From an uncultured Gammaproteobacteria bacterium (GTDB lineage: Bacteria; Patescibacteriota; Patescibacteriia; GWA2-47-26): DNA of 64,000 nucleotides. Location of the stretch: the NCBI GenBank assembly GCA_964532925.1, contig CAZHIP010000001.1:126621-190620 (forward strand), written 5' to 3'. Under the pieces are notes generated by a model. The model saw only the letters and a list, made by a program, of their open reading frames with translations. It was not told where the DNA came from and ran no database searches. Positions 3,441 to 17,582 of this stretch are shown in pieces. Position 1 is the stretch's first letter. Every line of letters begins with the position of its first letter. The translations under genes and the position numbers were made by a program.

Positions 3441-3465
3441 ATTATTTATTTTCACTTTGTTCAAT

Positions 3466-3555
3466 CGGAGAGGGAGGGATTCGAACCCTCGATACGGATT
3501 GAAACCCGTATAACAGGTTAGCAACCTGCCGCTTTCGGCCACTCAGCCACCTCTC
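3466..3555 (-). tRNA. tRNA-Ser (anticodon GCT), long variable arm
   Basis: Reverse complement reads GGAGAGGTGGCTGAGTGG...GGTTGCTAACC...GGGTTCGAATCCCTCCCTCTCCG. Acceptor GGAGAGG/CCTCTCC, anticodon loop TTGCTAA. Confidence 0.85.
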
Positions 3556-3572
3556 CAAGTAATACGGAAACG

Positions 3573-3601
3573 ATTATAGCCCAGCTAGTTGTTTTATTCA
3601 A
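3573..3601 (-). promoter_or_regulatory. sigma70-type promoter for the minus-strand tRNA-Ser (TTGAAT-17-TATAAT)
   Basis: Minus strand reads TTGAATaaaacaactagctgggcTATAAT, about 18 nt upstream of the tRNA 5' end. Confidence 0.6.
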
Positions 3602-3671
3602 CCGCGTGGTGTGAGGTAATGGTATTCTTAGCTTGTGCGATAACGAATACACAATGATTTTGCTATGGTGG

Positions 3672-3700
3672 TTGAACGAAACCCCAAGCTAGTATATAAT
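3672..3700 (+). promoter_or_regulatory. sigma70-type promoter for the plus-strand tRNA-Ser (TTGAAC-17-TATAAT)
   Basis: TTGAACgaaaccccaagctagtaTATAAT, divergent from the minus-strand tRNA promoter. Confidence 0.6.
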
Positions 3701-3738
3701 CTCGCCGTGGTCCTTATTGTGCTCTAATCGAGAATTGT

Positions 3739-3823
3739 GGAGGGGTGGCCGAGTGGTTTAAGGCAACGGTCTTGAAAACCGTCATGGCGCAAGTCATCGC
3801 GAGTTCGAATCTCGCCCCCTCCG
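3739..3823 (+). tRNA. tRNA-Ser (anticodon TGA), long variable arm
   Basis: GGAGGGGTGGCCGAGTGG...ACGGTCTTGAAAACCGT...GAGTTCGAATCTCGCCCCCTCCG. Acceptor GGAGGGG/CCCCTCC, anticodon loop CTTGAAA. Confidence 0.85.
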
Positions 3824-3825
3824 TA

Positions 3826-3856
3826 TAAAAAAGACACCGAATAGGTGTCTTTTTTA
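3826..3856. terminator. intrinsic terminator hairpin (AGACACC/GGTGTCT) with flanking A- and T-tracts
   Basis: AAAAAGACACCgaatAGGTGTCTTTTTTAG. It terminates the tRNA-Ser(TGA) and, read on the other strand, the convergent minus-strand gene. Confidence 0.6.
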
Positions 3857-3858
3857 GT

Positions 3859-4767
3859 TTATCGGGATCGGTCGCGGCGGTCATTCTTCTTGCGGGATTC
3901 TTCGAGCTTGCTGTCTTCTTTTTCTTCATCGTCATCGGGAACAGAGACATTAAGGTCTTTTTCTGCTTTACGGATGACCTCATGTTCACGTTTTTCGCGA
4001 CGAGCGCGTTGTTTTGAGCTAAAGGATGAGTCTTTGGGTGCGGTATTGCTCATCTTGTCTGTCACGACCGGTTCTTTTTGTGTACGAGTAGCATCTTGGT
4101 CGTCATCACGCTTGTCCACGCGTTCTTCGAGGTTTTGTCGGCGAGCATTCATGAAGCGTTCACTCTGCTCAATTGTTTCTATTATTCCTGCGGTTTCCTT
4201 TTGTGATTTTTTCATTTCTCGCAAGATTTTTTTGTGCGCATTGAGCGGTGCTTCGATGTTTGAACTTGCTTCCGCTGCGGCTTGAATGTTACCAGAGCGC
4301 TCCATGGTATCGATAGATTTTTGAATACGCTCTGTGTGCGCATTGATATCGAGATTCAGTGCAGAGAGTGTCTGTGGGTCAAATTTCTGTTGAGCGATTT
4401 TTTCTGCTTCAACGAGGCGGCGCTCAAGACGGCGTGTTTCCCAGGCGGCTTTTGCAACTGGTGTTCGTGCAATGGCGGAGCGGACTTCCTCGGTAACGTG
4501 TACCTTCACAGGGTACAGTACGTCTCCTGGCATGGTTCTTTCAGCAGCCGCAGCAACCCCACTACTTACGAGCGCTACGACGAGCGCAAGGCTAATACTC
4601 GTTGTGAATGAACGATGGAGGGTAAAGAAAGTCGACCATGCTGTTCTTGGTTTGATGTCGCCCACGCCAAGGAGCGTAGTAAAATGCGAACGCATCGCAG
4701 CGTGATCAGCGGGGGTGAGCACGATGCGATGTGCATCCTTGATCAGTTGTTTGAAAGACTTATTCAT
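3859..4767 (-). CDS. single-pass membrane protein downstream of the ECF sigma gene; putative anti-sigma factor (DUF5667-like)
   Basis: 302 aa. One TM helix (ISLALVVALVSSGVAAAA), a cytoplasmic N-terminus and a highly charged, coiled-coil-like C-terminus. Its start overlaps the sigma factor stop by 8 nt. Confidence 0.5.
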   Translation of the reverse strand: MNKSFKQLIKDAHRIVLTPADHAAMRSHFTTLLGVGDIKPRTAWSTFFTLHRSFTTSISLALVVALVSSGVAAAAERTMPGDVLYPVKVHVTEEVRSAIARTPVAKAAWETRRLERRLVEAEKIAQQKFDPQTLSALNLDINAHTERIQKSIDTMERSGNIQAAAEASSNIEAPLNAHKKILREMKKSQKETAGIIETIEQSERFMNARRQNLEERVDKRDDDQDATRTQKEPVVTDKMSNTAPKDSSFSSKQRARREKREHEVIRKAEKDLNVSVPDDDEEKEDSKLEESRKKNDRRDRSR

Positions 4768-5272
4768 ATGTTCCTAATTTGTCTCGGAGTCGTTTCAGTG
4801 CTCGATGTAAGCGTACAGAGACTATATTTTCTGATTCATCGGTAATGGTCGCAATTTCTTTTGGTCCAAGTCCGTTGATGTATCGGAGCACGATTACTGT
4901 TTTGTGTTTTTCGTCGAGCAGTGAATCGAGTTGTGCAATAATCTTCTTTCCGTCTATGGTTCCAAATATATTTCGTTCGTCATCAACACTTCCTACGTCA
5001 AAGCCAGTTTCTTCTTGCATGGCGTCGAGGGATTCCGCTGTCTTTTTCTTGTGCTCGTTGATAATGCAATTCGTTGCGGTTTTATACAGCAAGGCTCGAG
5101 GGTTATCAATGGTGTTCCCGGCGCTCGCGTATTGCCAAACGCGAGTAAACACCTCCTGGGTCAAGTCTTTGGCGCGTTCATAATCGTAGACGCGAAAGTA
5201 ACAATGGCGAAAAATCGCATCGCTCCACGAGTCATACCAGGAGATAAATTGTTCTTCTATTGGTTTGCCCAT
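4760..5272 (-). CDS. RNA polymerase sigma-70 family, ECF subfamily sigma factor
   Basis: 170 aa. Region-2-like DLTQEVFTRVWQ and region-4 helix-turn-helix ATITDESENIVSVRLHRALKRLRDKL. Confidence 0.85.
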   Translation of the reverse strand: MGKPIEEQFISWYDSWSDAIFRHCYFRVYDYERAKDLTQEVFTRVWQYASAGNTIDNPRALLYKTATNCIINEHKKKTAESLDAMQEETGFDVGSVDDERNIFGTIDGKKIIAQLDSLLDEKHKTVIVLRYINGLGPKEIATITDESENIVSVRLHRALKRLRDKLGTYE

Positions 5273-5459
5273 AGTATATGACAGCGTGGAGTCGTCTTTC
5301 TTACGGAATTGGCGACTTTTCGCTTAAAATAGCATTTTTAAACATACTCTATTTGTCTAGAATGAGCAATATGTAAGAAATAGTTGACTGGGTTGTCATA
5401 CATACCAGAAAAGGTCGAATTTCTTCTTTCCTTAATCATGTTCGTTAGAATATACATAT

Positions 5460-6191
5460 ATGAAACATTCACTAAAAACATATGTTGGTGCAGGTGCAAT
5501 GATCTTGTCTCTTGTTGCCATGATGCCATTTTCAGCTCTTGCAAGTAACGGCCAAGGCAAAAATCGCGATCACTCGGTGTCTATTCGTCCACAAATCGAT
5601 GTGCGTGAAACTGTGCAGGTTAATCCCAATGGTGAGGTTACGTTGCGCGGAGCTGTGAAGAGTGTTGGCACAGCAAGTTTGATAGTGAAAAGCTGGGGTG
5701 GGGATTGGACCATCAACATTGGTACGGGTGTGAAATTAATTTCTCGCGCAAACGCGGTGCTTGTTCTTGCTGATATGAAAGTTGGCGACGTAGTCACCGT
5801 GCATGGATCCATGAAACCGAATGCTGGTTTAACCGTGGATGCACGTCAGATTAAAGATCAGTTTATTCCTGATCGTGCAGTAGTAGTTCGCGGAACCATT
5901 GCATCGATTGATGCGAACACGCTGACAGTAAAGAGCGGTGATGCAACATGGACAGCAACCACTGCTGCAACCACGAAGTTCGTTGCTAAGTTTGGTGGTG
6001 TCACTACGCTTGCTGCAATGAAGGTTGGCGACGAAGTCATGGTCAAAGGTGTCTTGGCCGCTGGTTCAACCACCGCAATACAAGCAACAGAGATAAAAGA
6101 TATCTCACTCGTGTTGACGGTTGAAAAACCAAAAAAGATTAAGATGGACGATGACCGGTTTGATGATCGAGGTGGGCGCAAAAATCAGTAA
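5460..6191 (+). CDS. secreted protein with two tandem repeats of about 100 aa (DUF5666-like)
   Basis: 243 aa. Signal peptide MKHSLKTYVGAGAMILSLVAMMPFSALA. Internal repeat VRG.V.S...KVGD.V.V.G...IKD occurs twice. A TAGAAT -10 element lies 12 nt before the ATG. Confidence 0.5.
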   Translation: MKHSLKTYVGAGAMILSLVAMMPFSALASNGQGKNRDHSVSIRPQIDVRETVQVNPNGEVTLRGAVKSVGTASLIVKSWGGDWTINIGTGVKLISRANAVLVLADMKVGDVVTVHGSMKPNAGLTVDARQIKDQFIPDRAVVVRGTIASIDANTLTVKSGDATWTATTAATTKFVAKFGGVTTLAAMKVGDEVMVKGVLAAGSTTAIQATEIKDISLVLTVEKPKKIKMDDDRFDDRGGRKNQ

Positions 6192-6204
6192 GACGATTCT
6201 CGTA

Positions 6205-6236
6205 TAAAAACAGCCTCCATTCGGGGGCTGTTTTGT
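6205..6236. terminator. intrinsic terminator hairpin
   Basis: AAAAACAGCCTCCattcGGGGGCTGTTTTGTG. Confidence 0.55.
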
Positions 6237-6720
6237 GATATACTCAATTCTTATGCAGGATTCGTTTTCTTGGTCGGTAATTGAGCACGAGCATCATGAC
6301 CGTGGTTTTACCTGGTACTTGGCTGCTACCCTTGTCGGAGCGGCTCTGATCGTGTATGCTCTCATCACTGGGAATATCATGTTTGCGTTCATTGTCATCA
6401 TTTTTGCGATCATTTTGTTTATTTTATCGAGAATTCCGCCCAAATCACTGGTTGTCGTAGCAGCACCAAATGGTCTTTCTGTTGGTGACAGGCGGTACTC
6501 ATGGAAAGAAATTAAGAACTTCTGGATGGTGTATGATCCACCAGAGGTAAAAAGCCTCTATATTGAGTTTGTCGGCGGCCTACGTTCACACCTGCTGTTG
6601 GGGCTCAATGAGGTGGATCCAGTTGCAATTCGTGAGTTTTTGTTGCAATATATCCTCGAAGATGAAACTAAGCTAGAAGAGCCATTCATCGACTGGTTGA
6701 GTCGTCGTCTCAAGATCTAG
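6235..6720 (+). CDS. hypothetical integral membrane protein
   Basis: 161 aa with two or three hydrophobic helices (LAATLVGAALIVYALITGNIMFAFIVIIFAIILFIL). Confidence 0.45.
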   Translation: MIYSILMQDSFSWSVIEHEHHDRGFTWYLAATLVGAALIVYALITGNIMFAFIVIIFAIILFILSRIPPKSLVVVAAPNGLSVGDRRYSWKEIKNFWMVYDPPEVKSLYIEFVGGLRSHLLLGLNEVDPVAIREFLLQYILEDETKLEEPFIDWLSRRLKI

Positions 6721-6752
6721 TGCGTAGAACGAGCGGTTTTCCATCAAAGTGT

Positions 6753-6824
6753 GCCCTCGTCGTTCAATGGATAGGACACAAGCTTGCGGAGCCTGTGATA
6801 TAGGTTCGATTCCTATCGAGGGCA
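6753..6824 (+). tRNA. tRNA-Arg, anticodon read as GCG (unusual)
   Basis: GCCCTCGtcGTTCaatggataGGACaCAAGCttGCGgaGCCTGtgatATAGGttcgattCCTATCGAGGGCa. Acceptor GCCCTCG/CGAGGGC, T-arm ATAGG-TTCGATT-CCTAT, one A/C mismatch in the anticodon stem. Folded by hand. Confidence 0.6.
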
Positions 6825-6847
6825 GATTTTAGTGGAATACCAAACAA

Positions 6848-7651
6848 CTAGGGGAGCAGATAATACTGCTTCCTTTTTTGTATAAGACCTTCTGTTTCGA
6901 GTCCAGAAAGCACTTTTGCTAAGATTGCTGGGTCAGCATTAATCTCTTTTTGCATCGAGAGAAGAGTCATTTGTTCTTTGGATGTGAGCAATTTTAAGAT
7001 ATTCCCGCGTATCTGTCGGGTTGAGCCTTCAAATGCTGATTGCCGTACATAATGAGCACTCTGCCGATTGGGGTTTACAACTGTCTTTGGAAGAATCGAT
7101 CCGTAGTCCATAAGCGCGCTGTACCATTCTCTGGCTCGGTTGTGGGGTAGTGATTTTTCTACCAGTGGCAAAAGTTTTTTGTCAGACACGTTTTTTGTGC
7201 GCGGAAAAAAATGATGAATAAAAACGCGGCGAATGTTGGTTTCGATAAATACTACAGGGGTGTTAAACGCAAATGCAGGAATCGAACGCGCTGTTGCTGG
7301 CCCAATACCAGGAAGCTTCACTAGTTCTTCTGGGGTATTGGGTAAGATGCCATTATAATCACGCACAATAATCTGTGCTGCGCGATGCAGAAATAATCCG
7401 CGACGGTTATAGCCAAGTCCTTGCCACGCCTTCAAAACATCACCAGCGGTTGCGTTCGCTAACGCTTGGAAAGAAGGAAACTGCTCTGTGAATTCTTTGT
7501 ATTTTATGATGACGCGTGGCACCTGAGTCTGTTGAAGCATGACCTCGGAAATGAAAATACAATAGGGGTCAGTGGTATGACGCCACGGTAGATCACGGCC
7601 ATGTTTTTTATAGTAATCCCAAACGAGTGCTTGAAAGGCTTTGATCTCCAT
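6848..7651 (-). CDS. mutY: HhH-GPD base-excision glycosylase, MutY/endonuclease III-like, apparently lacking the [4Fe-4S] cysteine cluster
   Basis: 267 aa. The N-terminus (LPWRHTTDPYCIFISEVMLQQTQV) matches the MutY helix-hairpin-helix core. The whole protein has only one Cys. Confidence 0.7.
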   Translation of the reverse strand: MEIKAFQALVWDYYKKHGRDLPWRHTTDPYCIFISEVMLQQTQVPRVIIKYKEFTEQFPSFQALANATAGDVLKAWQGLGYNRRGLFLHRAAQIIVRDYNGILPNTPEELVKLPGIGPATARSIPAFAFNTPVVFIETNIRRVFIHHFFPRTKNVSDKKLLPLVEKSLPHNRAREWYSALMDYGSILPKTVVNPNRQSAHYVRQSAFEGSTRQIRGNILKLLTSKEQMTLLSMQKEINADPAILAKVLSGLETEGLIQKRKQYYLLP

Positions 7652-7688
7652 ATCAGACAGATTTTTAGTATGCTACCATACTTTAGAT

Positions 7689-9791
7689 ATGTTGACCCCT
7701 GAATCTCTCGTAGGCGCTTTGAGCCCTGTTGCACGGCCGGTAGCTAAGCAGCTCGCCACACTCGGGATTATGACCGTGCGCGATCTTTTGTATCACTTTC
7801 CGCGGCGATACGAGGACTGGAGTCATGTTGTCGCGCTCGATGAGCTCCAACCCGGCAACGAAGTGACGGTACATGTGTTTGTCGAACAAATTCGAAGCTG
7901 GCGGACAAAAACGCGTAAACTTACCATTACCGAAGCGGTTGTCCGCGATGCTAGTGTGGATGCAGAAGGCGTGCCGCGGGGGATTATAAAAGTGGGTTGG
8001 TTTAATCAGCCATTTTTGATAAAAAATATTCCAGCTGGCACAGAAGTGTATTTAGCTGGACGTGTTGATCCGCGGGGTGATTGGCTTATGACCGCACCTA
8101 TGGTGGAACGAGTACCCACGGGAGTGCGCGGATCAATTCATACGGCTGCGATTATCCCCATGTATCCTGCAACCGAACGGATTACACAGAAACAGATTCG
8201 TTTTCTCATGAAGATGGCACTGCGCGTTGTGCCGCAGATGGTTGAATGGTTGCCAGACGCTATCATGAAACAGTTCGGGTTTTTGCATCTATCGAACGCA
8301 CTCTCAGCGCTGCATTTTCCAAAATCACAAGACGAGCTTGACCAGGCACTTGCGCGGTTTAAATTTGAAGAACTATTGTTGCCACAACTCTATTCGGCTA
8401 TGATGCGCGAAAAGATTCGTACCGAGCGGGCTATTGTGGTGCCATTTCAAGAAAATATCACGAAGGGGTTTGTTCAAAGCTTGAGCTTTCAGCTGACGGA
8501 AGACCAGCGCCGTACCGCATGGGAGGCGCTCCAGGATATGCAAAAAAGCTACCCAATGAACCGACTTGTAGAAGGCGAGGTTGGTTCGGGTAAAACGGTG
8601 GTCGCAGCCATTGCGGCGCTCAATGCGATTAAGGCAAAAGCTCAAGTGGCGATTTTGGCGCCGACAGAAATTCTTGCTGTCCAGCATTACGCAACACTTT
8701 CAAAAATGCTCGGGAGTCATGGCGTGCGTGTTGCACTTTTAACAGCAAACCATATTCGATTTGGTGGGGATGAGGGGTTTTTGTTTAAGAATAGTTCTCA
8801 AAAAGGAACAGCATGTCGCGAGATGGTTGCAGATGGCGTCATTGATCTTATTATTGGCACCCACGCGCTCATTGAAGATGCGGTGAGTTTTGCAAAACTA
8901 GGGCTTGCGATTATCGACGAACAGCACCGATTTGGTGTTCGTCAGCGCGAAGCGTTGCGGAAAAAAACAGGAGGTAAGCACACGCCACATTTGCTCGCAC
9001 TTTCTGCTACGCCGATTCCACGAACGCTAGCGCTTGCGTTTCTTGGTGACATGGCGGTTTCGCAAATGCGTGCGATGCCGAGTGGTCGAGCAAAAATTGT
9101 TACAGAAATCGCTACCGACGCGAACCGCGCACATGTGTACAAGCGCATGCGGGAGACTGTTCTACGCGGTGAGCGTGTGTACGTGGTGTGCCCGCTGATT
9201 GATCCGAGTGAATTGGTTGGTGCTTTGCGGTCGGTGGCGCATGAAGAAAAAGAATTGGAAAAAGAGTTTAAGGATCAGGTGACGATTTTGCATGGGCGCA
9301 TGAAACCAGATGCACGCGAACAAGCCATGCAGGACTTTAAAGATGGCAAAAAACCAATACTCGTGAGCACGACGGTAATTGAGGTCGGCGTTGATGTGCC
9401 ACTCGCTACACTGATTGTGATTATTAATGCCGAACGATTTGGTCTGGCACAATTGCATCAGTTGCGTGGGCGCGTTGGCAGAGGGAATCGTCCGGGCTCA
9501 TGTGTGTTGATAAGTGGCATTATGGGCGGCCCGCCGTATCAACGATTACGTGCGTTTATAGATTGTAACGACGGGTTTGAGCTTGCAGAAAAAGATCTGG
9601 CGCTTCGAGGCCCTGGTGAAGTATGGGGGACTGATCAGTCGGGGTTTCCGACCTTCCGTATTGCGAGTGTGCAGGATCAAAAAATGATGATGGAAGCGCG
9701 AAAAGTCGCCGATGAGCTTATTGGTGATATACAAAAATATCCTTTACTTCAAAAACGATTAGAAGATTTCGCACGAGCTAGGCAGAGTTAG
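7689..9791 (+). CDS. recG: ATP-dependent DNA helicase RecG
   Basis: DEQHRFGV helicase motif, GSGKT P-loop and a wedge-domain N-terminus. The ORF is open from 7641, but Met at 7689 (MLTPESLVG...) avoids a head-on overlap with mutY. Confidence 0.85.
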   Translation: MLTPESLVGALSPVARPVAKQLATLGIMTVRDLLYHFPRRYEDWSHVVALDELQPGNEVTVHVFVEQIRSWRTKTRKLTITEAVVRDASVDAEGVPRGIIKVGWFNQPFLIKNIPAGTEVYLAGRVDPRGDWLMTAPMVERVPTGVRGSIHTAAIIPMYPATERITQKQIRFLMKMALRVVPQMVEWLPDAIMKQFGFLHLSNALSALHFPKSQDELDQALARFKFEELLLPQLYSAMMREKIRTERAIVVPFQENITKGFVQSLSFQLTEDQRRTAWEALQDMQKSYPMNRLVEGEVGSGKTVVAAIAALNAIKAKAQVAILAPTEILAVQHYATLSKMLGSHGVRVALLTANHIRFGGDEGFLFKNSSQKGTACREMVADGVIDLIIGTHALIEDAVSFAKLGLAIIDEQHRFGVRQREALRKKTGGKHTPHLLALSATPIPRTLALAFLGDMAVSQMRAMPSGRAKIVTEIATDANRAHVYKRMRETVLRGERVYVVCPLIDPSELVGALRSVAHEEKELEKEFKDQVTILHGRMKPDAREQAMQDFKDGKKPILVSTTVIEVGVDVPLATLIVIINAERFGLAQLHQLRGRVGRGNRPGSCVLISGIMGGPPYQRLRAFIDCNDGFELAEKDLALRGPGEVWGTDQSGFPTFRIASVQDQKMMMEARKVADELIGDIQKYPLLQKRLEDFARARQS

Positions 9792-10978
9792 CAGCCTCCG
9801 CCAAGAAGACTAACTTTGATCAAAGCTTCTTTGCTTTTTTGTAAGACAGTTGCGATGTCGCCGGTTGCACTTTTTTGGAATCCGCCTTCGGGTCGTCGGT
9901 TGAAATGCCATGGTTCGAAAGCTTTACTGCAAACATTTGTGTCCATGAGTACACCATATCCATTTGCAAGCATTGCGCCAATCAGCTTGATTTGGCATTC
10001 ATTTGTAGCCCAACATAAGCGCCCCGCAGAGGTTGTAATACCAGGACAAGTTCCGCAACCTGGGCCAGTAGCAAATAGGTCAAGTGAGTTTACATGTGTG
10101 CATCCGGCATAGGCTGGGTTTGGTTGATCTTTTCCCAGCCACATTTTTGGGTTTGATGCAGTCGCTACAGAACAGTTTACGTAGTTGCGCTTGAGCTCGC
10201 TCCATTCGCAGCGTTTTTTTACTAAGTTAATCTGCGTATTCATGCTTCGTGCGCCGGATCCGCGGATACCTAGTCCTAGAGAACTCATGACTTGCGCAGC
10301 CTTGAGTAGGGGTTGTTGATTGAACTGTGTTGTTAAAAGGCTACGCGATAATGCACCTTGCGCGGTAACTTGAGTGATAGGCGATCGCTGGTTTTCTGGC
10401 CAACGTGTATTTACCCAACCAACTCCACACAGTGGGTCGGGAGTGCCACCATCCCCTTCGTCATCGGGTGTAGTTGCATCTTCAACGTCATCAATCTCTT
10501 CGTATTGCACCAGTTTAATTTTCAAATTTTTGAATGTCACAAGATCGGGATTGATTATAAAGAGAACAGTATACGACCCGAGTGCAAGTATGAGACCAAC
10601 TAATGCACCACTAATGCGTTCTTTTGCATGTTTAATTTTTCCGGCATCGCCGGCAGCCAGAAGCCACTGAAAGCCTGCAATAACAATTATGACGCCTGCC
10701 ATGACGCCTGCTACTCCAATCAGATATTTATAGAGCATAGCAAAATATTCTGCCATGTAGGGGATGTAGCCGTAGGCTGTGGTTTGGCCGTCGCTCGTTG
10801 TGTCTGCGGTTAAGATTTTTGAAAATTTAAAATCTGGGGCAATGGGAATCTGAAGTTTTGGTTCAATTGAGTTTAGTGTTGTTGGTTCTGGGTCGGCAGC
10901 GTGAACAGGAGAAGAAGGACGGGTGAATGCGCCGCCAACTAGTAGAAATATTGCTAAGACAAAAAAAATCTTTCTCAT
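9788..10978 (-). CDS. secreted/membrane fusion protein: TrbC/VirB2-pilin-like two-helix hairpin plus acidic linker plus Cys-rich LAS-family (M15/VanY-like) metallopeptidase domain
   Basis: 396 aa. Signal peptide, then two TM helices separated by GDAGKIKHAKER, then a 10-Cys C-terminal domain with THVNSLD and EPWHFNR motifs resembling the H-x-D and E-W-W-H motifs of D-Ala-D-Ala carboxypeptidase (VanY) family enzymes. Confidence 0.45.
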   Translation of the reverse strand: MRKIFFVLAIFLLVGGAFTRPSSPVHAADPEPTTLNSIEPKLQIPIAPDFKFSKILTADTTSDGQTTAYGYIPYMAEYFAMLYKYLIGVAGVMAGVIIVIAGFQWLLAAGDAGKIKHAKERISGALVGLILALGSYTVLFIINPDLVTFKNLKIKLVQYEEIDDVEDATTPDDEGDGGTPDPLCGVGWVNTRWPENQRSPITQVTAQGALSRSLLTTQFNQQPLLKAAQVMSSLGLGIRGSGARSMNTQINLVKKRCEWSELKRNYVNCSVATASNPKMWLGKDQPNPAYAGCTHVNSLDLFATGPGCGTCPGITTSAGRLCWATNECQIKLIGAMLANGYGVLMDTNVCSKAFEPWHFNRRPEGGFQKSATGDIATVLQKSKEALIKVSLLGGGC

Positions 10979-11631
10979 GGTATATAGTTTTGTATCGCGT
11001 CTTCGATATCGCCTTTGTCAAAACTGCCGCGTGCCTTACCAATAAAGAAGTAGGGAGTCGCATCAACATTGAGTGCAACACCTTCTGCAATCGTAAGATC
11101 GATCATTTGCGCCGTGATTGCGGAAGCAAGGCACGTATCGAAGGATGTCTTGTTGAGTTTTAGCTCTTCTGCGATGAGCGTGAGGCTACCCATGTCGACG
11201 ATTTCATCTTGACGCTCAAAGAGTGTGTCATGAAATTCCCAATATTTTCCTTGTGCACCAGCGCAGCGGGCGGCGATGGCGGCATTGCGGGCAAGAGGGT
11301 GGATTTTCGTATTTGGCATGTCTTTCCAGATGAGTCGAATGCGTGGATTGTTTTTCATGAGTTTCTGAATCGCGGCGTGTGCATCAACGCAGGAAGGGCA
11401 AAAGTAATCGCCAAATTCGACAATGGTAATATCAGCAATTTTACTACCGCGCACTGGGTCGGTGCCGCCAATGATGGGGGAAGCTAAGATTAGTTTTTCT
11501 TGCTGGGGAGTGGTAGGTGTTTTTGGGGTTGCGGGATTCCAAATGAGGTAGCCCCAGGCACCGACAATCAAAGCCAAAAAACACAAACCACCAAGTACGA
11601 GCCCGTTGTGTTTGTGTGAAAGAGTATTCAT
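10975..11631 (-). CDS. dsbA: DsbA-family thiol:disulfide oxidoreductase (thioredoxin fold, membrane-anchored)
   Basis: 218 aa. N-terminal TM helix and active site FCPSC. Its stop overlaps the start of the Cys-rich gene downstream (ATGA). Confidence 0.75.
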   Translation of the reverse strand: MNTLSHKHNGLVLGGLCFLALIVGAWGYLIWNPATPKTPTTPQQEKLILASPIIGGTDPVRGSKIADITIVEFGDYFCPSCVDAHAAIQKLMKNNPRIRLIWKDMPNTKIHPLARNAAIAARCAGAQGKYWEFHDTLFERQDEIVDMGSLTLIAEELKLNKTSFDTCLASAITAQMIDLTIAEGVALNVDATPYFFIGKARGSFDKGDIEDAIQNYIP

Positions 11632-11632
11632 G

Positions 11633-12856
11633 CTATTTGACCGTCAACGACTCGAGTTGGCCAGTTGATTGGTTGCGAATGAACAATGTGTTGCCGGTGG
11701 CTGGTGCAATAATCTCGCTAATAGTACGCGGGATTTCTGGTGTTGCTACGAGCGTGGTTGCACCATTGGCAATATCAATACGGTAGATGTTGTCGGGTGT
11801 GTTGTTGGCGATTTCACGTAAGAGGCCGGCACCATCGGGGAGCTCTGTTGGAACGGCGCAATAGGCGATGGTCGCACTGGCAAATGTGCATTTGTCTGCC
11901 CAGGTAGCAATAGGAAGTGGGGTTTTGTTTTGACCAATGGTGTCGGGAGTACCGCGCGTGACCCATAGTCGCGGACGAAGCTGGTTGGTGCTGTCGGTAA
12001 CACTGTAGAGGAGAATATTTCCGTCGGGTGACCATTGCGGGTTGAAGTCGATACCGTTCACGCGGAGGGATTTGAAGTTTTCGTGATTTTTCCCAACCAG
12101 TAAAATTTCTTGATCATTGAAAGTGCTAGGAGTTGATGGGGTTCGCGAGAAGGCGATTACGTGATCATTTGGCGACCAAGCAACAATGACTTTGCTGGCA
12201 TTATCACCCAATGGTTCAATAGCCTGTGCACTCGAACCATTGTCGTTCGCTACTGCAAGCCAGCGGTTGCCTGCTTCGGCCCCAATAGAGAGAAAGGCGA
12301 TTTGCTTTCCACTGGGTGCAAACTCAAACGCCTGCCAATGGCTCGGCAGAGTAACCTGTTGCTTTGTATCAAAGTTGTAGAGCGTTTTTGCGCCATCGGG
12401 ATATTCTAAAATGGCTTTTGTGTCTTTGGGTGACCAGGTGACGTTGCTGACGTTGTAGAACACTTTGTCGGAAAGTAATGTGGTGGTGCCATCGTTTCCG
12501 GCATGCATGAATTGTCCGGTAGAGGAGTTGTAGAAATTGAGCCCGTTGCCGTCAGTCGATCGACTTAGTGCAAGAACCGGAGCATTGGTAATAGTAGTAA
12601 TTGGTGTGCTGGTAGGCGTGGTTGCAATAGGTGGTGGAACAATCGCCGGAGTTACCGAAACGGTTGTGCCGTCGGGGCGAGTAGTGGTGCCAGCGGGAGC
12701 CAGTGATCCTCCGCCAAGCGGTTGCGTCGATCCATCTGGTGGAGTTATGGGTGGCGGTAGTACGGTCGGACTTTTGAAAAAGACATAATATAATGCAAAC
12801 GCCAGCGCCACAGCGACAGTGAGGAGGATAAGAGCGATGAAGAGTTTGCGTCTCAT
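11633..12856 (-). CDS. membrane-anchored TolB-like beta-propeller (PD40/WD40-like repeat) protein
   Basis: Repeated W/F-SPDG motifs (WSPKDTKAI, FAPSGKQIAF, WSPNDHVIAF, WSPDGNILLY). N-terminal TM helix and a Pro/Thr-rich linker. Start chosen at the internal Met (MRRKLF...) at 12856. Confidence 0.6.
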   Translation of the reverse strand: MRRKLFIALILLTVAVALAFALYYVFFKSPTVLPPPITPPDGSTQPLGGGSLAPAGTTTRPDGTTVSVTPAIVPPPIATTPTSTPITTITNAPVLALSRSTDGNGLNFYNSSTGQFMHAGNDGTTTLLSDKVFYNVSNVTWSPKDTKAILEYPDGAKTLYNFDTKQQVTLPSHWQAFEFAPSGKQIAFLSIGAEAGNRWLAVANDNGSSAQAIEPLGDNASKVIVAWSPNDHVIAFSRTPSTPSTFNDQEILLVGKNHENFKSLRVNGIDFNPQWSPDGNILLYSVTDSTNQLRPRLWVTRGTPDTIGQNKTPLPIATWADKCTFASATIAYCAVPTELPDGAGLLREIANNTPDNIYRIDIANGATTLVATPEIPRTISEIIAPATGNTLFIRNQSTGQLESLTVK

Positions 12857-12917
12857 ACAGTAATACGTCCTAGGAATAATTGCAGTTGGTACGAAGTTGA
12901 TAATTATACCGCGAATA

Positions 12918-12950
12918 CAAAAAACCCGCACCTAGTTAGTGCGGGTTTTG
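12918..12950. terminator. bidirectional intrinsic terminator (CCCGCAC/GTGCGGG)
   Basis: AAAAAACCCGCACctagttaGTGCGGGTTTTG, immediately downstream of htpX on the minus strand. Confidence 0.6.
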
Positions 12951-12951
12951 T

Positions 12952-13845
12952 TTAGTGGCCCATTGTTCGCAGTTGTTTGATGCGATCATCGATTGGAGGG
13001 TGTGTGGAAAATAGCCCCGCGACAGCACCGCGCATTTTGCCAAACGGATTCGCAATATACATATGTGCCGTTGCGCGATTGGCGCTACGTAATGGCTGGT
13101 TTTCCTGCTTGATTTTCTCGAGTGCGTTTGCGAGACCTTCGGGATAGCGCGTGAGGAGTGCTCCAGATGCGTCTGCAAGATATTCACGACGGCGGGAGAT
13201 CGCGAGTTGAATGAGTTGTGCAAAAATAGGTGAGAGGATAATAAAGACGAGACCGACGATCATGAGCACGCCGCCACCAGAGTCGTTGTTACTATCGCGA
13301 CGGCGCCCGCCGAATAGATGCGCGCGCATCATCCAGTCAGCAAGGAGTGATACGAGTCCAACAAGAATAATCACGATCGTCATGACGCGGATATCGTAGT
13401 TTTTGACATGCGAGAGTTCGTGGGCGAGGACACCTTCGAGTTCTTCGTTGGTAAGTTTAGTGAGTGCGCCGGTTGTTACTGCGATAGATGCTTTTTCTGG
13501 GTTGCGGCCAGTGGCAAACGCGTTAATGGCATTGTCTTGCATTACATAGACCTTGGGCATGGGTTGGCCATTGGTGATGCAGAGATTTTCTACCATGTTG
13601 CAGAGGTAGGCGTTGTCGGTTTTGGTTACGGGCTTTGCGTGAGCACTTGAAAGTGCGACTTTGTCGCCGTGATAATACGACACCATGGCCATTATGCTCG
13701 AGAACAAGAGAGCTGGAATCATCATGCCTAGGGCGTCTTGGCCAGAATACCAACCATACCCATAGGCAATACCAGAGATGAGTGCAATGAAGACGACGAT
13801 TAGGAAAACCGTGCGTCGTTTATTTGAAGCAATCTGGTCGTACAT
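12952..13845 (-). CDS. htpX: zinc metalloprotease HtpX (peptidase M48)
   Basis: 297 aa. HELSHV zinc-binding motif and multiple TM helices. Confidence 0.85.
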   Translation of the reverse strand: MYDQIASNKRRTVFLIVVFIALISGIAYGYGWYSGQDALGMMIPALLFSSIMAMVSYYHGDKVALSSAHAKPVTKTDNAYLCNMVENLCITNGQPMPKVYVMQDNAINAFATGRNPEKASIAVTTGALTKLTNEELEGVLAHELSHVKNYDIRVMTIVIILVGLVSLLADWMMRAHLFGGRRRDSNNDSGGGVLMIVGLVFIILSPIFAQLIQLAISRRREYLADASGALLTRYPEGLANALEKIKQENQPLRSANRATAHMYIANPFGKMRGAVAGLFSTHPPIDDRIKQLRTMGH

Positions 13846-13848
13846 GGC

Positions 13849-14406
13849 TTATGAGAATTTAACCGACACTGGTTCGCGTTCTAGCTCGCTCGTGAGCTCA
13901 AAGAATGTTTTTGCCTTGAATGAGAACATGCCGGCAATGGTATTGGTGGGGAATGTTTGGATTGCGGTGTTCAAGTCGCGAACGTTGCCATTGTAGAAGC
14001 GGCGAGCAGCTTGAATCTTGTTTTCGGTGTCAGCGAGTTCGTCTTGGAGTTGCAAGAAGTTTTGTGAAGCTTTGAGTTCTGGGTAACTTTCGGCAACAGC
14101 GAACAACGTCTTTAATGTACCCGTCAATGCATTTTCTGCCTTGGCGTGTTCTTCGGGTGTGGTTGCTTGCATGGCCATGCTTCGAGCGGCGGTGACTTTC
14201 TCGAGAGTTTCTCGTTCGTGGGTCATGTATCCTTTGACTGCTTCGACGAGATTGGGGATGAGGTCGTAGCGACGTTTGAGCTGTACATCAATATCTGACC
14301 ACGCTTCTTCGGAGCGGGTGCGCAAGGTTACGAGTCGGTTGTAGCTTGCGATAAGCCACACCACAAGAACCGCGAGAACGATGAGTAGAATCCACAGAAT
14401 GCCCAT
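13849..14406 (-). CDS. lemA: LemA-family protein
   Basis: 185 aa. N-terminal TM helix plus the conserved LemA core (RYDLIPNLVE...FYNGNVRDLN). Conserved lemA-htpX pairing. Confidence 0.8.
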   Translation of the reverse strand: MGILWILLIVLAVLVVWLIASYNRLVTLRTRSEEAWSDIDVQLKRRYDLIPNLVEAVKGYMTHERETLEKVTAARSMAMQATTPEEHAKAENALTGTLKTLFAVAESYPELKASQNFLQLQDELADTENKIQAARRFYNGNVRDLNTAIQTFPTNTIAGMFSFKAKTFFELTSELEREPVSVKFS

Positions 14407-14500
14407 ATGAATTACGGTTAAGATTTACTCTAATATCCAAAGAAGTATATACTGTTTTCATGCGTTTCGTCAACGGGCTTTGATACCATAAACACTGGCT

Positions 14501-15283
14501 ATGATTGGAATATTTGACTCGGGTATTGGGGGGTTAATTGTCGCTGCTGCCATACAGAAATCATTTCCGAACGAGCCATTCATCTATTTGGGGGACACGG
14601 CGCGGGTGCCGTATGGGAATAAAAGCAAAGAGGCAATTATTGAATACTCAACGCAAGGCGTGGAATTCTTGATCAAGAACGGTGCTACCATAGTGGTTAT
14701 TGGGTGCAACACTTCATCTGCGGTCGCGTTACCATCTTTACGCAAGCGGTTTTCGGTACCCATTGTAGGAGTGATTGATCCAGCTGTCGCAACCGCGCTC
14801 AAAACTACACAACATCATCGCATTGGAATTATTGGCACGCGTGCAACCATTGGTTCTCATATATATGAAAAAAAGTTGAAAGCGAAGAATAGGAAGACAA
14901 AAGTCTTTGAAGTTGCGACACCACTGTTGGTCCCTTTTATTGAAGAGGGTTGGGTTGATGGTAGCGAAGTAGTGTCGGTGCTTGAGGTATATCTGGCACC
15001 ACTCAAAAAACAGCATGTCGATACATTGATTTTGGGTTGCACACATTATCCTGCGCTGGAACGCCAGATTGGTGAGGTGATGGGTACAGATGTTTTGCTT
15101 ATCTCCTCGGCAACGGCAATTATTGACCCATTGAAAAAACTTTTGAAAACAGATATACTGCCTGGGCAAGAGCGACAAAAAAATCAGTCGCGCCTTTTTG
15201 TGACAGATCGCACACCGTTTGCGGTAGCGATTGCACAACAATGGCTTGGTAAAAATGCCCGATTAGAGCTTACTCATCTGTAA
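14501..15283 (+). CDS. murI: glutamate racemase
   Basis: IGIFDSGIGGL and the GCNT(S) catalytic Cys motifs. Confidence 0.85.
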   Translation: MIGIFDSGIGGLIVAAAIQKSFPNEPFIYLGDTARVPYGNKSKEAIIEYSTQGVEFLIKNGATIVVIGCNTSSAVALPSLRKRFSVPIVGVIDPAVATALKTTQHHRIGIIGTRATIGSHIYEKKLKAKNRKTKVFEVATPLLVPFIEEGWVDGSEVVSVLEVYLAPLKKQHVDTLILGCTHYPALERQIGEVMGTDVLLISSATAIIDPLKKLLKTDILPGQERQKNQSRLFVTDRTPFAVAIAQQWLGKNARLELTHL

Positions 15284-15291
15284 ACCCCTCA

Positions 15292-17581: not shown

Positions 17582-17582
17582 T

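What the first reader, a model, noticed from the sequence alone, without database searches (positions are those of the whole stretch)
9788..11631. Fusion of a VirB2/TrbC-pilin-like hairpin to a Cys-rich LAS-type peptidoglycan peptidase, coupled to DsbA
The 396-aa protein has a signal peptide, then two hydrophobic helices separated by a short basic loop (...GVMAGVIIVIAGFQWLLAAGDAGKIKHAKERISGALVGLILALGSYTVLFII...). This is the topology of TrbC/VirB2 pilins. An acidic linker follows, then a 10-Cys globular domain with THVNSLD and EPWHFNR motifs reminiscent of VanY / M15 / LAS metallopeptidases. The upstream dsbA (active site CPSC) overlaps its start by ATGA, which fits a disulfide-rich secreted enzyme that needs an oxidase. 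A cell-wall hydrolase fused to a pilin-like membrane hairpin is not a described architecture. It could be a pilus- or secretion-associated wall-remodelling factor, or an attack enzyme against host peptidoglycan in an episymbiont.
Basis: inference. Interest (0 to 1): 0.6.

Follow-up and report, generated by a model that had tools for sequence, protein, structure and literature searches.

The report
Secretion-pilin hairpin fused to wall peptidase
An ultrasmall (Patescibacteria/CPR) bacterium encodes a protein that joins the two-helix membrane module of a type IV secretion pilin to a disulfide-rich, zinc-type cell-wall peptidase. The gene is coupled to a DsbA gene, and in related genomes the same slot holds the same pilin module with other wall-cutting domains.

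Summary

- **Genes.** ORF 9788..10978(-) encodes 396 aa. Its start overlaps the stop of a CPSC DsbA gene (10975..11631) by ATGA.
- **Pilin module.** Residues 82-133 pass the Pfam T4SS_pilin (PF18895) threshold narrowly: 27.0 bits against a cut-off of 26.6.
- **Catalytic residues.** R244, H295, D300, E355 and H358 are kept across the family. Distant members score just under Pfam VanY's cut-off (24.8 bits; cut-off 25).
- **Family.** Every relative of the peptidase domain found among 1.84 billion proteins also carries the pilin module.
- **Locus.** The slot propeller–DsbA–fusion–(RadA)–RecG lies about 8 kb from a VirB4/PrgI type IV secretion cluster and recurs in eight divergent Patescibacteria loci. 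One relative carries pilin+M23 next to pilin+VanY. Another, with 79% identical RecG, has a replaced C-terminal domain.

The most likely role is a secretion-system-linked cell-wall peptidase, a functional analogue of VirB1. Whether it cuts the cell's own wall or the host's is open. I found no description of this fusion in the literature I searched, so I rate it a new variant of known kinds.

The parts
9788..10978 (-). Whole gene for the 396-aa fusion protein (T4SS_pilin-like hairpin + LAS/M15-like peptidase). The stop codon at 9788-9790 overlaps the stop of the convergent recG.
10898..10978 (-). Signal peptide, aa 1-27 (MRK, hydrophobic core, VHA|AD). The (H/S/K)A|AD site is conserved in homologues.
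   Evidence: sequence inspection; no signal-peptide predictor was run
10733..10897 (-). Mature N-terminal segment, aa 28-82. It holds the conserved P-K-L-Q-I-P-I-(A/P) motif and the amphipathic YIPYMAEYF lead-in. Stand-alone Patescibacteria pilins share a similar motif.
10553..10732 (-). Two-helix hairpin, aa 83-142: TM1, the basic loop GDAGKIKHAKERIS, then TM2. This is the core of the PF18895 match (aa 82-133).
10406..10552 (-). Conserved NPDLVTFK motif followed by an acidic, Pro-containing linker, aa 143-191 (12 D/E). This is the point where C-terminal domains are exchanged between relatives.
9791..10405 (-). Cys-rich LAS/M15 (VanY/VanX-like) zinc-peptidase domain, aa 192-396. Predicted roles: R244 and Q249 in substrate binding, H295/D300/H358 as Zn ligands, E355 as the base. 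Nine of the protein's 10 Cys lie here (the tenth, C184, is in the linker). C311, C328 and C396 are invariant; C257 and C269 are nearly so.
10975..11631 (-). Membrane-anchored DsbA-like thiol:disulfide oxidoreductase (218 aa, CPSC at residue 78). Its stop overlaps the fusion start (ATGA).
11633..12856 (-). Membrane-anchored TolB/PD40-like beta-propeller protein (407 aa from the ATG; the ORF is open up to 12931). It is the conserved first gene of the propeller-dsbA-fusion unit, 36-86% identical across the seven other loci compared (L009's copy runs off the contig end and was not compared).
12921..12949 (-). Terminator-like hairpin (12-bp stem plus T-run) just after the M48 peptidase gene. It probably separates lemA-htpX from the propeller-dsbA-fusion unit.
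   Evidence: consensus scan only
156..2039 (+). VirB4-like type IV secretion ATPase (P-loop_TraG 9e-29, AAA_10). On a metagenome contig that carries the identical VirB4 protein and continues upstream of the window's start, TraC-like, PrgI/VirB3-like and three larger ORFs precede it.
2597..3304 (+). ComF-like protein (double zinc ribbon + phosphoribosyltransferase). It is part of the virB4-comF-recG synteny reported for class ABY1.
   Evidence: PMC12102498
7641..9791 (+). RecG helicase, convergent with the fusion gene and abutting it. It is the conserved downstream neighbour in relatives.

Best explanation
The gene encodes a Sec-exported protein of a Patescibacteria (CPR) bacterium, probably class ABY1. 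A VirB2-like pilin module of the CPR type IV secretion system (T4SS; signal peptide, N-terminal segment, two-helix hairpin with a basic cytoplasmic loop) is fused through a ~45-residue acidic linker to an extracytoplasmic, disulfide-stabilised zinc peptidase of the LAS/M15 (VanY/VanX/LdcB/Ply500) fold.

Proposed mechanism:
1. Signal peptidase cuts after A27.
2. The hairpin inserts with both ends outside the membrane. The C-terminal enzyme therefore sits outside the membrane, or on the outer face of a pilus if the module polymerises.
3. The translationally coupled, membrane-anchored DsbA oxidises the enzyme's Cys residues as the chain emerges.
4. The enzyme binds Zn through H295, D300 and H358. 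With E355 as the base and R244/Q249 holding the substrate carboxylate, it cleaves a peptide bond in peptidoglycan stem peptides.
5. This happens at the site of the T4SS apparatus.

In function it would be the membrane-anchored wall hydrolase of a monoderm T4SS, a VirB1 analogue, with a pilin module as its anchor.

Shown here: the architecture, the fold, conservation of the catalytic residues, the conserved operon and its proximity to the T4SS cluster, and domain exchange at the locus.

Inferred: topology, disulfide formation by DsbA, peptidase activity and its bond specificity, physical association with the T4SS or a pilus, and whether the wall being cut is the cell's own or the host's.
For: **Pilin module**
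- PF18895 scores 27.0 bits (GA 26.6) at aa 82-133; homologues score 31-39 bits.
- A profile of the module retrieves stand-alone 91-217 aa PF18895 pilins of Patescibacteria. Two of these also carry PF04956 TrbC hits.
- Sub-threshold hits recur to the Mycoplasma ICE pilin-like family NF045849.

**LAS fold**
- The AF2 model has pLDDT 71.6 and pTM 0.73.
- The Foldseek PDB top 22 are all LAS/Hedgehog fold. The viral library's top named hits are VanY/M15B.
- A profile against PDB aligns SGAR..Q to LdcB SGFRSYDYQ and FEPWHF to YEPWHI.
- hhalign to the verified VanX sequence gives P=0.0097 over 138 columns, with R244~R71, D300~D123, E355~E181 and H358~H184.
- R244, Q249, D300, E355, W357 and H358 are invariant in 11 family members. 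H295 and H358 are the only His in the domain.
- Members P0018 and P0017 score on Pfam VanY (24.8 bits, GA 25, E 2e-5) and Peptidase_M15 (E 4e-5).

**The fusion is a conserved architecture**
- An exhaustive profile search of 1.84 billion representatives found only 10 proteins with this domain. All 10 carry the pilin module.

**Locus**
- The order propeller-DsbA-fusion-(RadA)-RecG recurs in the window and loci L001, L005, L006, L009 and L010. L007 and L008 lack DsbA.
- VirB4 is 7.7 kb away in the window, with PrgI and TraC-like genes just upstream. The same holds in L005.
- The synteny matches the published ABY1 T4SS context of comF, recG and radA (PMC12102498).

**Exchangeable wall-hydrolase domains**
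- L005 has pilin+Peptidase_M23, both above GA, next to pilin+VanY.
- L009 has RecG 79% and DsbA 63% identical and a pilin module 66% identical, but an unrelated C-terminal domain.

**Published background**
- Most CPR genomes with VirB2-like pilins lack a VirB1 (PMC12102498).
- Monoderm VirB1 homologues are membrane-anchored (PMC4027160).
Against: - No Pfam or NCBIfam model detects the peptidase domain in the window protein itself. The Foldseek E-values are weak (best 1.8e-3, TM 0.35-0.45), and the model is only moderately confident.
- The zinc motif is H-x4-D, whereas the M15 and Hedgehog enzymes I recall (VanX, Ply500, MepA, Sonic hedgehog) and family members P0017/P0018 have H-x6-D. Metal binding could therefore be altered.
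- The PF18895 score is marginal. Homology to structurally characterised VirB2 is not demonstrable.
- The gene is not inside the T4SS cluster. It lies 7.7 kb away, with tRNAs, a sigma factor and repair genes between, in a block of housekeeping envelope genes (LemA, M48, RseP-like, MurI).
- VanY/LdcB-type enzymes trim stem peptides rather than opening holes in the wall.
- In L010 the adjacent DsbA-like protein lacks CxxC, and two loci have no DsbA at all.
- There is no expression, activity or localisation data.
Confidence: 0.62

Rival explanations
1. A host-directed weapon. The pilin module polymerises, as a minor or tip subunit or as a decorated filament. Alternatively, the C-terminal domain is released by cleavage in the linker. 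Either way, the peptidase reaches and cuts the peptidoglycan of the bacterial host to which the epibiont attaches. The exchangeable C-terminal domains would be adaptations to different host wall chemotypes, by analogy with polymorphic toxins.
For: - The fusion evolves much faster than its neighbours. Against L001, RecG is 86%, the propeller 86% and DsbA 78% identical, but the fusion only 39% (pilin module 61%, LAS domain 39-41%).
- In L009 the C-terminal domain is replaced outright while RecG stays 79% identical.
- L005 carries tandem pilin+M23 and pilin+VanY paralogues.
- The many disulfides suit an exposed extracellular enzyme.
- The T4SS and its pilin array are essential for epibiotic growth in Southlakia (PMC10633639).
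- No stand-alone pilin gene was found in the 64-kb window or in the flanks of the related loci.
- From my own knowledge, not checked here: pilin termini face the outside of solved conjugative pili.
Against: - There is no evidence that any CPR T4SS builds a pilus.
- A 200-aa domain on every subunit is hard to reconcile with the tight helical packing of VirB2-type pili.
- No immunity-like gene follows the fusion in the window, where recG abuts it.
- VirB1-type hydrolases of monoderm conjugation systems also vary widely in domain content, so domain exchange alone does not discriminate.
Confidence: 0.22
2. A housekeeping peptidoglycan-trimming carboxypeptidase (LdcB/VanY-like) that uses a two-helix membrane anchor and has nothing to do with type IV secretion. 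On this view the nearby VirB4 cluster is coincidental synteny in a small, gene-dense genome.
For: - The gene lies among envelope housekeeping genes: LemA, M48/HtpX-like, an M50 (RseP-like) site-2 protease, glutamate racemase, and PBP2 and FtsW/RodA further along.
- The best sequence-level PDB matches are LdcB-type L,D-carboxypeptidases.
- NCBI names relative P0018 a D-alanyl-D-alanine carboxypeptidase family protein.
Against: - The anchor is specifically a PF18895 pilin module. Its N-terminal motif is also shared with stand-alone CPR pilins, so it is more than a generic hydrophobic anchor.
- The same slot carries M23 or unrelated domains in relatives. That is unexpected for an enzyme with one fixed housekeeping reaction.
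- It diverges far faster than the flanking housekeeping genes.
- The virB4-comF-recG-radA linkage recurs across class ABY1 (PMC12102498).
Confidence: 0.12
3. The C-terminal domain is a non-catalytic LAS/Hedgehog-like binding module, for example a peptidoglycan or ligand adhesin displayed on a pilin-like anchor.
For: - Hedgehog N-terminal signalling domains share the fold and appear among the structural hits.
- The H-x4-D spacing is atypical.
Against: - The full catalytic set, including the general-base Glu and the substrate-binding Arg, is invariant across an otherwise fast-evolving family.
- The relatives closest to canonical M15 keep the SxHxxGxAxD-type motif.
Confidence: 0.04

Closest known systems
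VirB2-like pilins of the Patescibacteria type IV secretion system (Pfam PF18895 T4SS_pilin; Quinonero-Coronel et al. 2025, PMC12102498; Wang et al. 2023, PMC10633639)
   Same: - Signal peptide, an N-terminal P-x-L-x-(I)P(I)P-type segment, and two hydrophobic helices with a short basic loop.
- A Pfam match at the gathering score.
- Patescibacterial origin.
- Location near virB4/comF/recG, as reported for class ABY1.
   Different: [quoted passage not shown]
- This protein is 396 aa and carries a ~200-aa enzyme after TM2.
- It is not in a pilin array.
- The papers I read do not mention pilin-enzyme fusions.
LAS / MEROPS M15 zinc peptidases: VanX (1r44), VanY (5zhf), VanXYc, LdcB (4mph/4jid), Ply500 (2vo9), LysB4
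   Same: - The order of motifs: SG-x-R...Q, H...D, E-x-x-H.
- The secondary-structure order around those motifs.
- An extracytoplasmic location.
   Different: - Below every family-model threshold.
- H-x4-D instead of H-x6-D.
- Nine Cys lie in the domain, with conserved positions that suggest several disulfides.
- Extra loops.
- Fusion to a pilin module. Bond specificity is unknown.
Membrane-anchored VirB1-type wall hydrolases of monoderm conjugation systems (PrgK of pCF10, TraG of pIP501, TcpG of pCW3; cited in PMC4027160 and PMC12102498)
   Same: A peptidoglycan-cleaving domain tethered to the membrane at its N-terminus, encoded with a VirB4-type system of the MPF_FATA lineage. The enzyme domains are variable and exchangeable (SLT, CHAP, M23, NlpC/P60).
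   Different: - Those proteins use a simple N-terminal TM helix and carry SLT/CHAP-type domains.
- Here the anchor is a VirB2-like hairpin and the enzyme is M15-like.
- There is no sequence homology. The similarity is one of function only, and it is inferred.
Thiol-disulfide oxidoreductases attached to conjugation or competence machines (F-plasmid TrbB/TraF thioredoxin-like proteins; B. subtilis BdbDC acting on ComGC). Cited from my own knowledge, not checked here.
   Same: A dedicated DsbA/thioredoxin-fold protein is encoded next to Cys-rich exported components of a DNA- or protein-transfer apparatus.
   Different: Here the DsbA is translationally coupled to one specific substrate gene, and in one relative it has lost its CxxC.
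Polymorphic toxin architecture (constant N-terminal trafficking module, variable C-terminal enzymatic domain)
   Same: The N-terminal module is constant (61-66% identity), while the C-terminal domains are replaced at the linker within an orthologous locus.
   Different: There is no adjacent immunity gene in the window. The N-terminal module is a membrane hairpin rather than a soluble secretion-targeting domain. This is an analogy only.

Membership tests
Pfam PF18895 T4SS_pilin (Patescibacteria VirB2-like pilins) | Score at or above the curated gathering threshold of the family model | tested here: met
   27.0 bits against GA 26.6 at aa 82-133, which is marginal. Homologues score 31.1-38.9 bits.
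Pfam PF18895 T4SS_pilin (Patescibacteria VirB2-like pilins) | Signal peptide followed by two hydrophobic helices separated by a short positively charged loop | tested here: met
   Hydropathy and charge counts. Fourteen positions are invariant across nine modules.
Pfam PF18895 T4SS_pilin (Patescibacteria VirB2-like pilins) | Small protein consisting essentially of the pilin module | tested here: not met
   The protein is 396 aa with a ~200-aa enzyme domain after TM2. Stand-alone relatives are 91-217 aa.
Pfam PF18895 T4SS_pilin (Patescibacteria VirB2-like pilins) | Encoded with a VirB4-type T4SS | tested here: inconclusive
   VirB4 lies 7.7 kb away with unrelated genes between. The linkage recurs in L001 and L005 and matches the published ABY1 context. 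The gene is nonetheless not inside the cluster.
Pfam PF18895 T4SS_pilin (Patescibacteria VirB2-like pilins) | Polymerises into a pilus or is required for T4SS function | not testable with these tools
   Needs cryo-ET, genetics or biochemistry.
TrbC/VirB2 pilins (Pfam PF04956; A. tumefaciens VirB2) | Detectable sequence homology to TrbC/VirB2 | tested here: not met
   PF04956 scores 12.9 bits against GA 27.9. hhalign to verified VirB2 gives P=0.07. A profile finds no solved pilin. The only link is indirect: stand-alone relatives P0043 and P0049 carry both PF18895 and PF04956 hits.
LAS / M15 zinc peptidases (VanY, VanX, LdcB, Ply500) | LAS fold | tested here: met
   [not shown]
LAS / M15 zinc peptidases (VanY, VanX, LdcB, Ply500) | Zinc ligands H-x(3-6)-D plus a distal H, in the order H, D, H | tested here: met
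   H295-x4-D300 and H358. D300 and H358 are invariant, and H295 is conserved with shifted spacing in P0017/P0018. They align to VanX D123 and H184. Their 3D proximity in the model could not be checked because no coordinates were available.
LAS / M15 zinc peptidases (VanY, VanX, LdcB, Ply500) | Catalytic Glu in E-x-x-H and substrate-binding Arg in the SG-x-R motif | tested here: met
   E355 and R244 are invariant. They align to VanX E181 and R71 and to LdcB SGFRS and YEPWH.
LAS / M15 zinc peptidases (VanY, VanX, LdcB, Ply500) | Score above the curated threshold of a family model (PF02557 VanY, PF01427 Peptidase_M15, and others) | tested here: not met
   No hit at E<=1 for the window protein. 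Relative P0018 reaches 24.8 bits against GA 25, and P0017 20.2 bits.
LAS / M15 zinc peptidases (VanY, VanX, LdcB, Ply500) | Zinc-dependent cleavage of a peptidoglycan peptide bond | not testable with these tools
   Needs purified protein and muropeptide analysis.
DsbA-type thiol:disulfide oxidoreductase (the upstream gene) | Thioredoxin/DSBA fold with a CxxC active site and a cis-Pro loop | tested here: met
   Thioredoxin_4 2e-18 and DSBA 8e-13. CPSC at residue 78 and ATPYF. CxxC is kept in the window, L001, L005, L006 and L009, and lost in L010.
DsbA-type thiol:disulfide oxidoreductase (the upstream gene) | A re-oxidising partner (DsbB or VKOR) in the genome | not tested
   None was noticed among the window ORFs that were scanned, but the whole genome is not available.
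VirB1-type T4SS wall hydrolases of monoderms (PrgK/TraG/TcpG) | Homology to SLT/CHAP VirB1 profiles | tested here: not met
   No SLT, CHAP or NlpC/P60 family hit. The resemblance is functional only.

The most novel reading that the evidence does not exclude
In ABY1-type Patescibacteria, the VirB2-like subunit of the type IV secretion apparatus is itself the carrier of the system's enzymes. A pilin scaffold displays exchangeable, disulfide-hardened peptidoglycan hydrolases (M15, M23 and others) on the outside of a T4SS filament or channel. The epibiont uses this to open the wall of its bacterial host, and the C-terminal domain is swapped at a fixed locus to match the host's wall chemistry.
Probability: 0.15. 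Interest if true: 0.85.

Novelty: new variant of a known kind. Interest (0 to 1): 0.6.

Why it matters
Type IV secretion genes and their VirB2-like pilins are nearly universal in Patescibacteria. In the one species tested, they are essential for growth on a host. What the machine does is unknown, and so is how it crosses a wall.

A published survey noted that most pilin-bearing CPR genomes lack a VirB1 wall hydrolase. A conserved family in which the pilin module is covalently joined to a wall peptidase offers a concrete answer to that gap. Three features of the family are relevant:
- M23 and other domains replace the peptidase at the same locus.
- The gene is coupled to DsbA.
- It diverges far faster than its neighbours.

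The finding also means that some genes counted as 'pilins' in surveys may in fact be enzyme fusions. Finally, it supplies a soluble domain that can be expressed and assayed, which gives an experimental handle on an uncultivated lineage.

Tried and rejected
**No result or chance-level results**
- Pfam, NCBIfam and PHROGs searches on the window protein gave no hit on the C-terminal domain.
- A direct PDB sequence search gave only a pollen-allergen/expansin match around GCGTC/GCGSC at E=5.7, which I judged to be chance.
- A four-sequence profile gave an isochorismatase hit at E=0.38, also chance.
- A P0018 domain search against PDB found nothing.
- The pilin-module profile against PDB matched no pilin, and hhalign to VirB2 was not significant.
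- hhalign of the LAS profile against the M23 fusion showed no relation, as expected.

**Collection scans**
- Two scans of the 185,579-species genome collection found no relative.
- The afdb50 fold library was unavailable.

**C-terminal domains of relatives that remain unassigned**
- AlphaFold on the alternative domain of P0005-P0007 failed (pLDDT 37). It has a Cys...His pattern suggesting a papain-like amidase, but this is untested.
A PDB search gave only a chance hit. NlpC/P60 is therefore suggested but not shown.

**Explanations considered and rejected**
- A chance ORF: rejected because of the conserved homologues and synteny.
- A generic two-TM anchor: rejected because of the PF18895 match and the N-terminal motif shared with stand-alone pilins.
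- A phage or mobile-element origin: the context is chromosomal housekeeping genes.

Full report
**1. The observation**

Both ORFs exist as stated: 9788..10978(-) of 396 aa and 10975..11631(-) of 218 aa. The junction reads ...ATACCATGAGAAAG, so the DsbA stop TGA and the downstream ATG share ATGA.

A script on the translated sequence gave these features for the 396-aa protein:
- An N-terminal signal-like segment, MRK-IFFVLAIFLLVGGAF-...VHA|AD.
- Two strongly hydrophobic segments, with window centres at 88-103 and 130-138.
- A loop between them, GDAGKIKHAKERIS (4 K/R + 1 H against 2 D/E).
- An acidic stretch at aa 143-191 (12 D/E).
- Ten Cys, all between 184 and 396.
- THVNSLD at 294-300 and EPWHFNR at 355-361.
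- H295 and H358 are the only histidines in residues 192-396.

The 218-aa protein has a membrane anchor, CPSC at residue 78 and an ATPYF loop. It matches Thioredoxin_4 (2e-18) and DSBA (8e-13). The identical 396-aa protein is encoded on two independent metagenome contigs, and homologues of 98%, 65% and 39% identity exist. This is a real, conserved gene.

**2. The N-terminal module**

Pfam places aa 82-133 in PF18895 T4SS_pilin at 27.0 bits, against a gathering score of 26.6. TrbC/VirB2 (PF04956) reaches only 12.9 bits against 27.9. NCBIfam gives a sub-threshold match to the Mycoplasma ICE 'pilin-like conjugal transfer protein' NF045849, and this recurs in relatives.

A profile of nine such modules retrieves small stand-alone proteins of 91-217 aa. 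Most are pre-annotated PF18895, two also carry PF04956, and where named they come from Patescibacteria. These share an N-terminal Y-x-P-L-x-P-(I)P-G-type motif that resembles the PKLQIPI(A/P) motif of the fusion.

Direct tests against solved pilins failed. The profile finds none in the PDB. hhalign to A. tumefaciens VirB2 aligns TM1-loop-TM2 in register, but at P=0.07 (I checked the sequence I supplied against 8cue).

So the module is a member of the PF18895 family, marginally by score and clearly by its relatives. Its link to classical VirB2 rests on that family's own annotation.

**3. The C-terminal domain**

No family library detects this domain. Sequence searches found very few relatives: 4 proteins in the word-indexed search, and 10 in an exhaustive HMMER scan of 1.84 billion representatives.

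Structure:
- An AlphaFold2 model built on four sequences reached pLDDT 71.6 and pTM 0.73.
- The Foldseek top 22 PDB hits are all LAS/Hedgehog, though weak (best E 1.8e-3, TM 0.35-0.45). In the viral library most of the top named hits are VanY/M15B.

Sequence:
- An 11-member profile's best PDB matches are LdcB enzymes (E 0.28-1.3). SGAR..Q aligns to SGFRSYDYQ and FEPWHF to YEPWHI.
- hhalign against VanX gives P=0.0097 over 138 columns, with R244~R71, D300~D123, E355~E181 and H358~H184. I verified that the VanX sequence I used is identical to 1r44.
- R244, Q249, D300, E355, W357 and H358 are invariant in the 11 family members, as are C311, C328 and C396.
- The two most canonical members have SSGFRS..KQ, CPHTTARAVD and SEPWHF. 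They score on Pfam VanY (24.8 bits, GA 25, E 2e-5) and on Peptidase_M15 (E 4e-5). NCBI names one of them a D-alanyl-D-alanine carboxypeptidase family protein.

The window subfamily has H-x4-D where those two members have H-x6-D, which is also the spacing I recall for M15 and Hedgehog enzymes.

I conclude that the domain is a divergent, Cys-rich LAS/M15-type zinc peptidase. Its activity and bond specificity are untested.

**4. The fusion is the rule for this domain, and the enzyme part is exchangeable**

All ten proteins that carry the domain also carry the pilin module upstream. Conversely, the closest pilin modules (58-66% identical to the window's) in P0005-P0007 are followed by an unrelated Cys/His-containing domain, and P0008-P0011 carry still other domains.

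In locus L005, two fusions sit in tandem. One has T4SS_pilin (31.7 bits) plus Peptidase_M23 (29.3 bits, GA 28.7). The next has T4SS_pilin plus the VanY-like domain.

P0019, a truncated protein, ends in an SLT-like motif. The P0008/P0009 domain gives a partial NlpC/P60-like His-motif alignment (P=9e-4). The P0005-type domain could not be modelled (pLDDT 37). I treat these last three as leads, not results.

**5. Genomic context**

The window is chromosomal and full of housekeeping genes: PheST, DnaE, ThrRS, SecA, SHMT, FolD, SerRS, LysRS-type, GreA, PBP2, GAPDH, EF-Ts, S2, RF1, RodA/FtsW, GyrB, NusG and L1. The organism therefore makes its own peptidoglycan.

At the left edge lies a VirB4-like ATPase (156..2039; P-loop_TraG 9e-29). 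A metagenome contig that carries the identical VirB4 protein extends upstream of the window's start. On it, VirB4 is preceded by TraC-like, PrgI/VirB3-like and three large ORFs.

From VirB4 to the fusion gene, the window's order is:
- a 186-aa ORF, ComF, two tRNA-Ser genes and a sigma/anti-sigma pair;
- DUF5666, tRNA-Arg, an HhH-GPD glycosylase and RecG;
- then, convergent with RecG, the fusion, DsbA, a TolB/PD40-like propeller, M48 and LemA.

A terminator-like hairpin after the M48 gene suggests that propeller-dsbA-fusion is its own transcription unit (this is a consensus scan only).

The same slot recurs in seven other loci from divergent Patescibacteria:

| Locus | Order |
|---|---|
| L001 | propeller–DsbA–fusion, then convergent RecG |
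| L005 | propeller–DsbA–pilin/M23–pilin/VanY–RadA–RecG...ComF–VirB4–TraC-like–PrgI |
| L006 | propeller–DsbA–fusion–RadA–RecG |
| L010 | propeller–DsbA-like–fusion–RadA...RecG |
| L009 | DsbA–pilin/other domain, then convergent RecG |
| L007, L008 | same slot, without DsbA |

This is the virB4-comF-recG-radA context that Quinonero-Coronel et al. report for class ABY1 (PMC12102498). With a broadened pilin profile, the hydrolase fusions are the only pilin-like ORFs in the 64-kb window and in loci L001-L007.

**6. Rates of change**

| Compared with the window | RecG | Propeller | DsbA | Fusion |
|---|---|---|---|---|
| L001 | 86% | 86% | 78% | 39% overall (pilin module 61%, LAS domain 39-41%) |
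| L009 | 79% | not compared | 63% | pilin module 66%, C-terminal domain replaced |

The fusion, and above all its enzyme part, changes much faster than its neighbours. The exchange point is the acidic linker after the conserved NPDLVTFK motif.

The DsbA partner keeps CxxC in five of the six loci that have one. In L010 it has lost the motif (FNSAQS), which is a caveat for a purely oxidative role.

**7. Mechanism**

- *Shown:* the architecture, the fold, the catalytic-residue conservation, the operon coupling, the conserved locus near a T4SS, and domain exchange.
- *Inferred from the positive-inside rule and the hairpin:* both termini are outside, so the enzyme is extracytoplasmic, where disulfides can form and peptidoglycan lies.
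- *Inferred from family knowledge of LAS enzymes:* H295, D300 and H358 bind zinc, E355 acts as the base, and R244/Q249 bind the substrate.
- *Inferred from context and the literature:* monoderm VirB1 homologues are membrane-anchored hydrolases (PMC4027160), and most CPR genomes with VirB2-like pilins lack VirB1 (PMC12102498). On that basis the protein would be the wall-cutting component of the CPR T4SS, with a pilin module as anchor.

I give about 0.6 to this general statement. Within it, I lean slightly towards local remodelling of the producer's own wall, because the tether is short unless the module polymerises. The fast divergence and domain replacement keep a host-directed role very much alive (about 0.2-0.25). 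A T4SS-independent housekeeping carboxypeptidase gets about 0.1, and a non-catalytic binding domain is unlikely.

**8. Comparison with what is known, and novelty**

The parts are known: PF18895 pilins of the CPR T4SS (PMC12102498; PMC10633639; the review PMC12857230), M15/LAS peptidases, and DsbA. The combination is not discussed in any paper that my searches returned. The CPR T4SS survey treats VirB2 homologues as small proteins and concludes that pilus biogenesis seems not to need VirB1.

The architecture is already in the databases without comment: there are precomputed PF18895+M23 and PF18895+VanY hits, and NCBI has named one member. I therefore class it as a new variant of known kinds rather than a categorically new system.

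**9. Limits**

- The structural model is of moderate confidence, and I could not inspect its coordinates.
- The taxonomic assignment rests on the names of relatives ('Patescibacteria group bacterium') and on published synteny, not on a phylogeny.
- The species-representative genome collection contained no relative, so the family's distribution is poorly sampled.
- No expression or activity data exist.

Noticed in passing
window 156..2039 (+), and L004 1..6055: The window starts inside a Patescibacteria-type T4SS cluster. A VirB4-like ATPase is preceded, on a metagenome contig that carries the identical VirB4 protein and extends upstream of the window's start, by TraC-like, PrgI/VirB3-like and three large unannotated ORFs (815+, 380 and 429 aa). 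No stand-alone pilin gene was detected there.
   Followed up: partly
window 11633..12856 (-): A membrane-anchored TolB/PD40-like beta-propeller protein is the conserved first gene of the propeller-dsbA-fusion unit. It is 36-86% identical in the seven other loci where it could be compared. Its role next to a wall peptidase is unexplained.
   Followed up: partly
L005 8233..10939: There are tandem paralogues. One has T4SS_pilin + Peptidase_M23 (458 aa, 19 Cys, both domains above Pfam thresholds). Then comes a 114-aa ORF holding a signal peptide and a Cys-rich N-domain. Then comes the pilin + VanY-like protein P0018, which lacks a signal peptide. The 114-aa ORF and P0018 look like one gene split by a frameshift or an assembly error.
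   Followed up: partly
L010 3791..4450: The DsbA-like protein upstream of a pilin-LAS fusion has lost its CxxC motif (FNSAQS) but keeps its position. This is a redox-dead thioredoxin fold retained next to its presumed substrate.
   Followed up: no
L009 1711..3168 (P0007); also P0005, P0006: The locus is orthologous (RecG 79%, DsbA 63%, pilin module 66% identical to the window's), but the C-terminal domain is an unrelated Cys/His-containing domain (HC-x-W-x-V ... AHH ... C-x-ES). It could not be modelled (pLDDT 37), and its fold is unknown.
   Followed up: partly
P0019 (210 aa, truncated record): A pilin module is followed by ...YGYDWRLLKAFAAAE, which looks like the start of an SLT lytic-transglycosylase domain. 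This may be a further class of pilin-hydrolase fusion.
   Followed up: no
window 42358..47424 (-) and 24253..25389 (+): A 1688-aa ORF and a 378-aa ORF have no Pfam match at E<=0.001. The large one lies between a PBP2 gene and GAPDH.
   Followed up: no
window 1..64000: GC skew is positive in all but the first of the thirty-two 2-kb bins (that one is near zero, -0.005), and the cumulative skew rises steadily from 2 kb on. The window therefore lies within one replichore, with no origin or terminus signal.
   Followed up: no
window 9788..9791: The stop codons of the convergent recG and fusion genes overlap by 4 nt, so no intergenic terminator can sit between them.
   Followed up: no
N-termini of P0003-P0008, P0012, P0014, P0015, P0017 and L005a: Many relatives carry an extra Cys-rich domain between the signal peptide and the PKLQIPIP motif (for example AAD-x-CC...C...C). 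The window protein and P0002 lack it. Its function is unknown, and it is another likely DsbA substrate.
   Followed up: no
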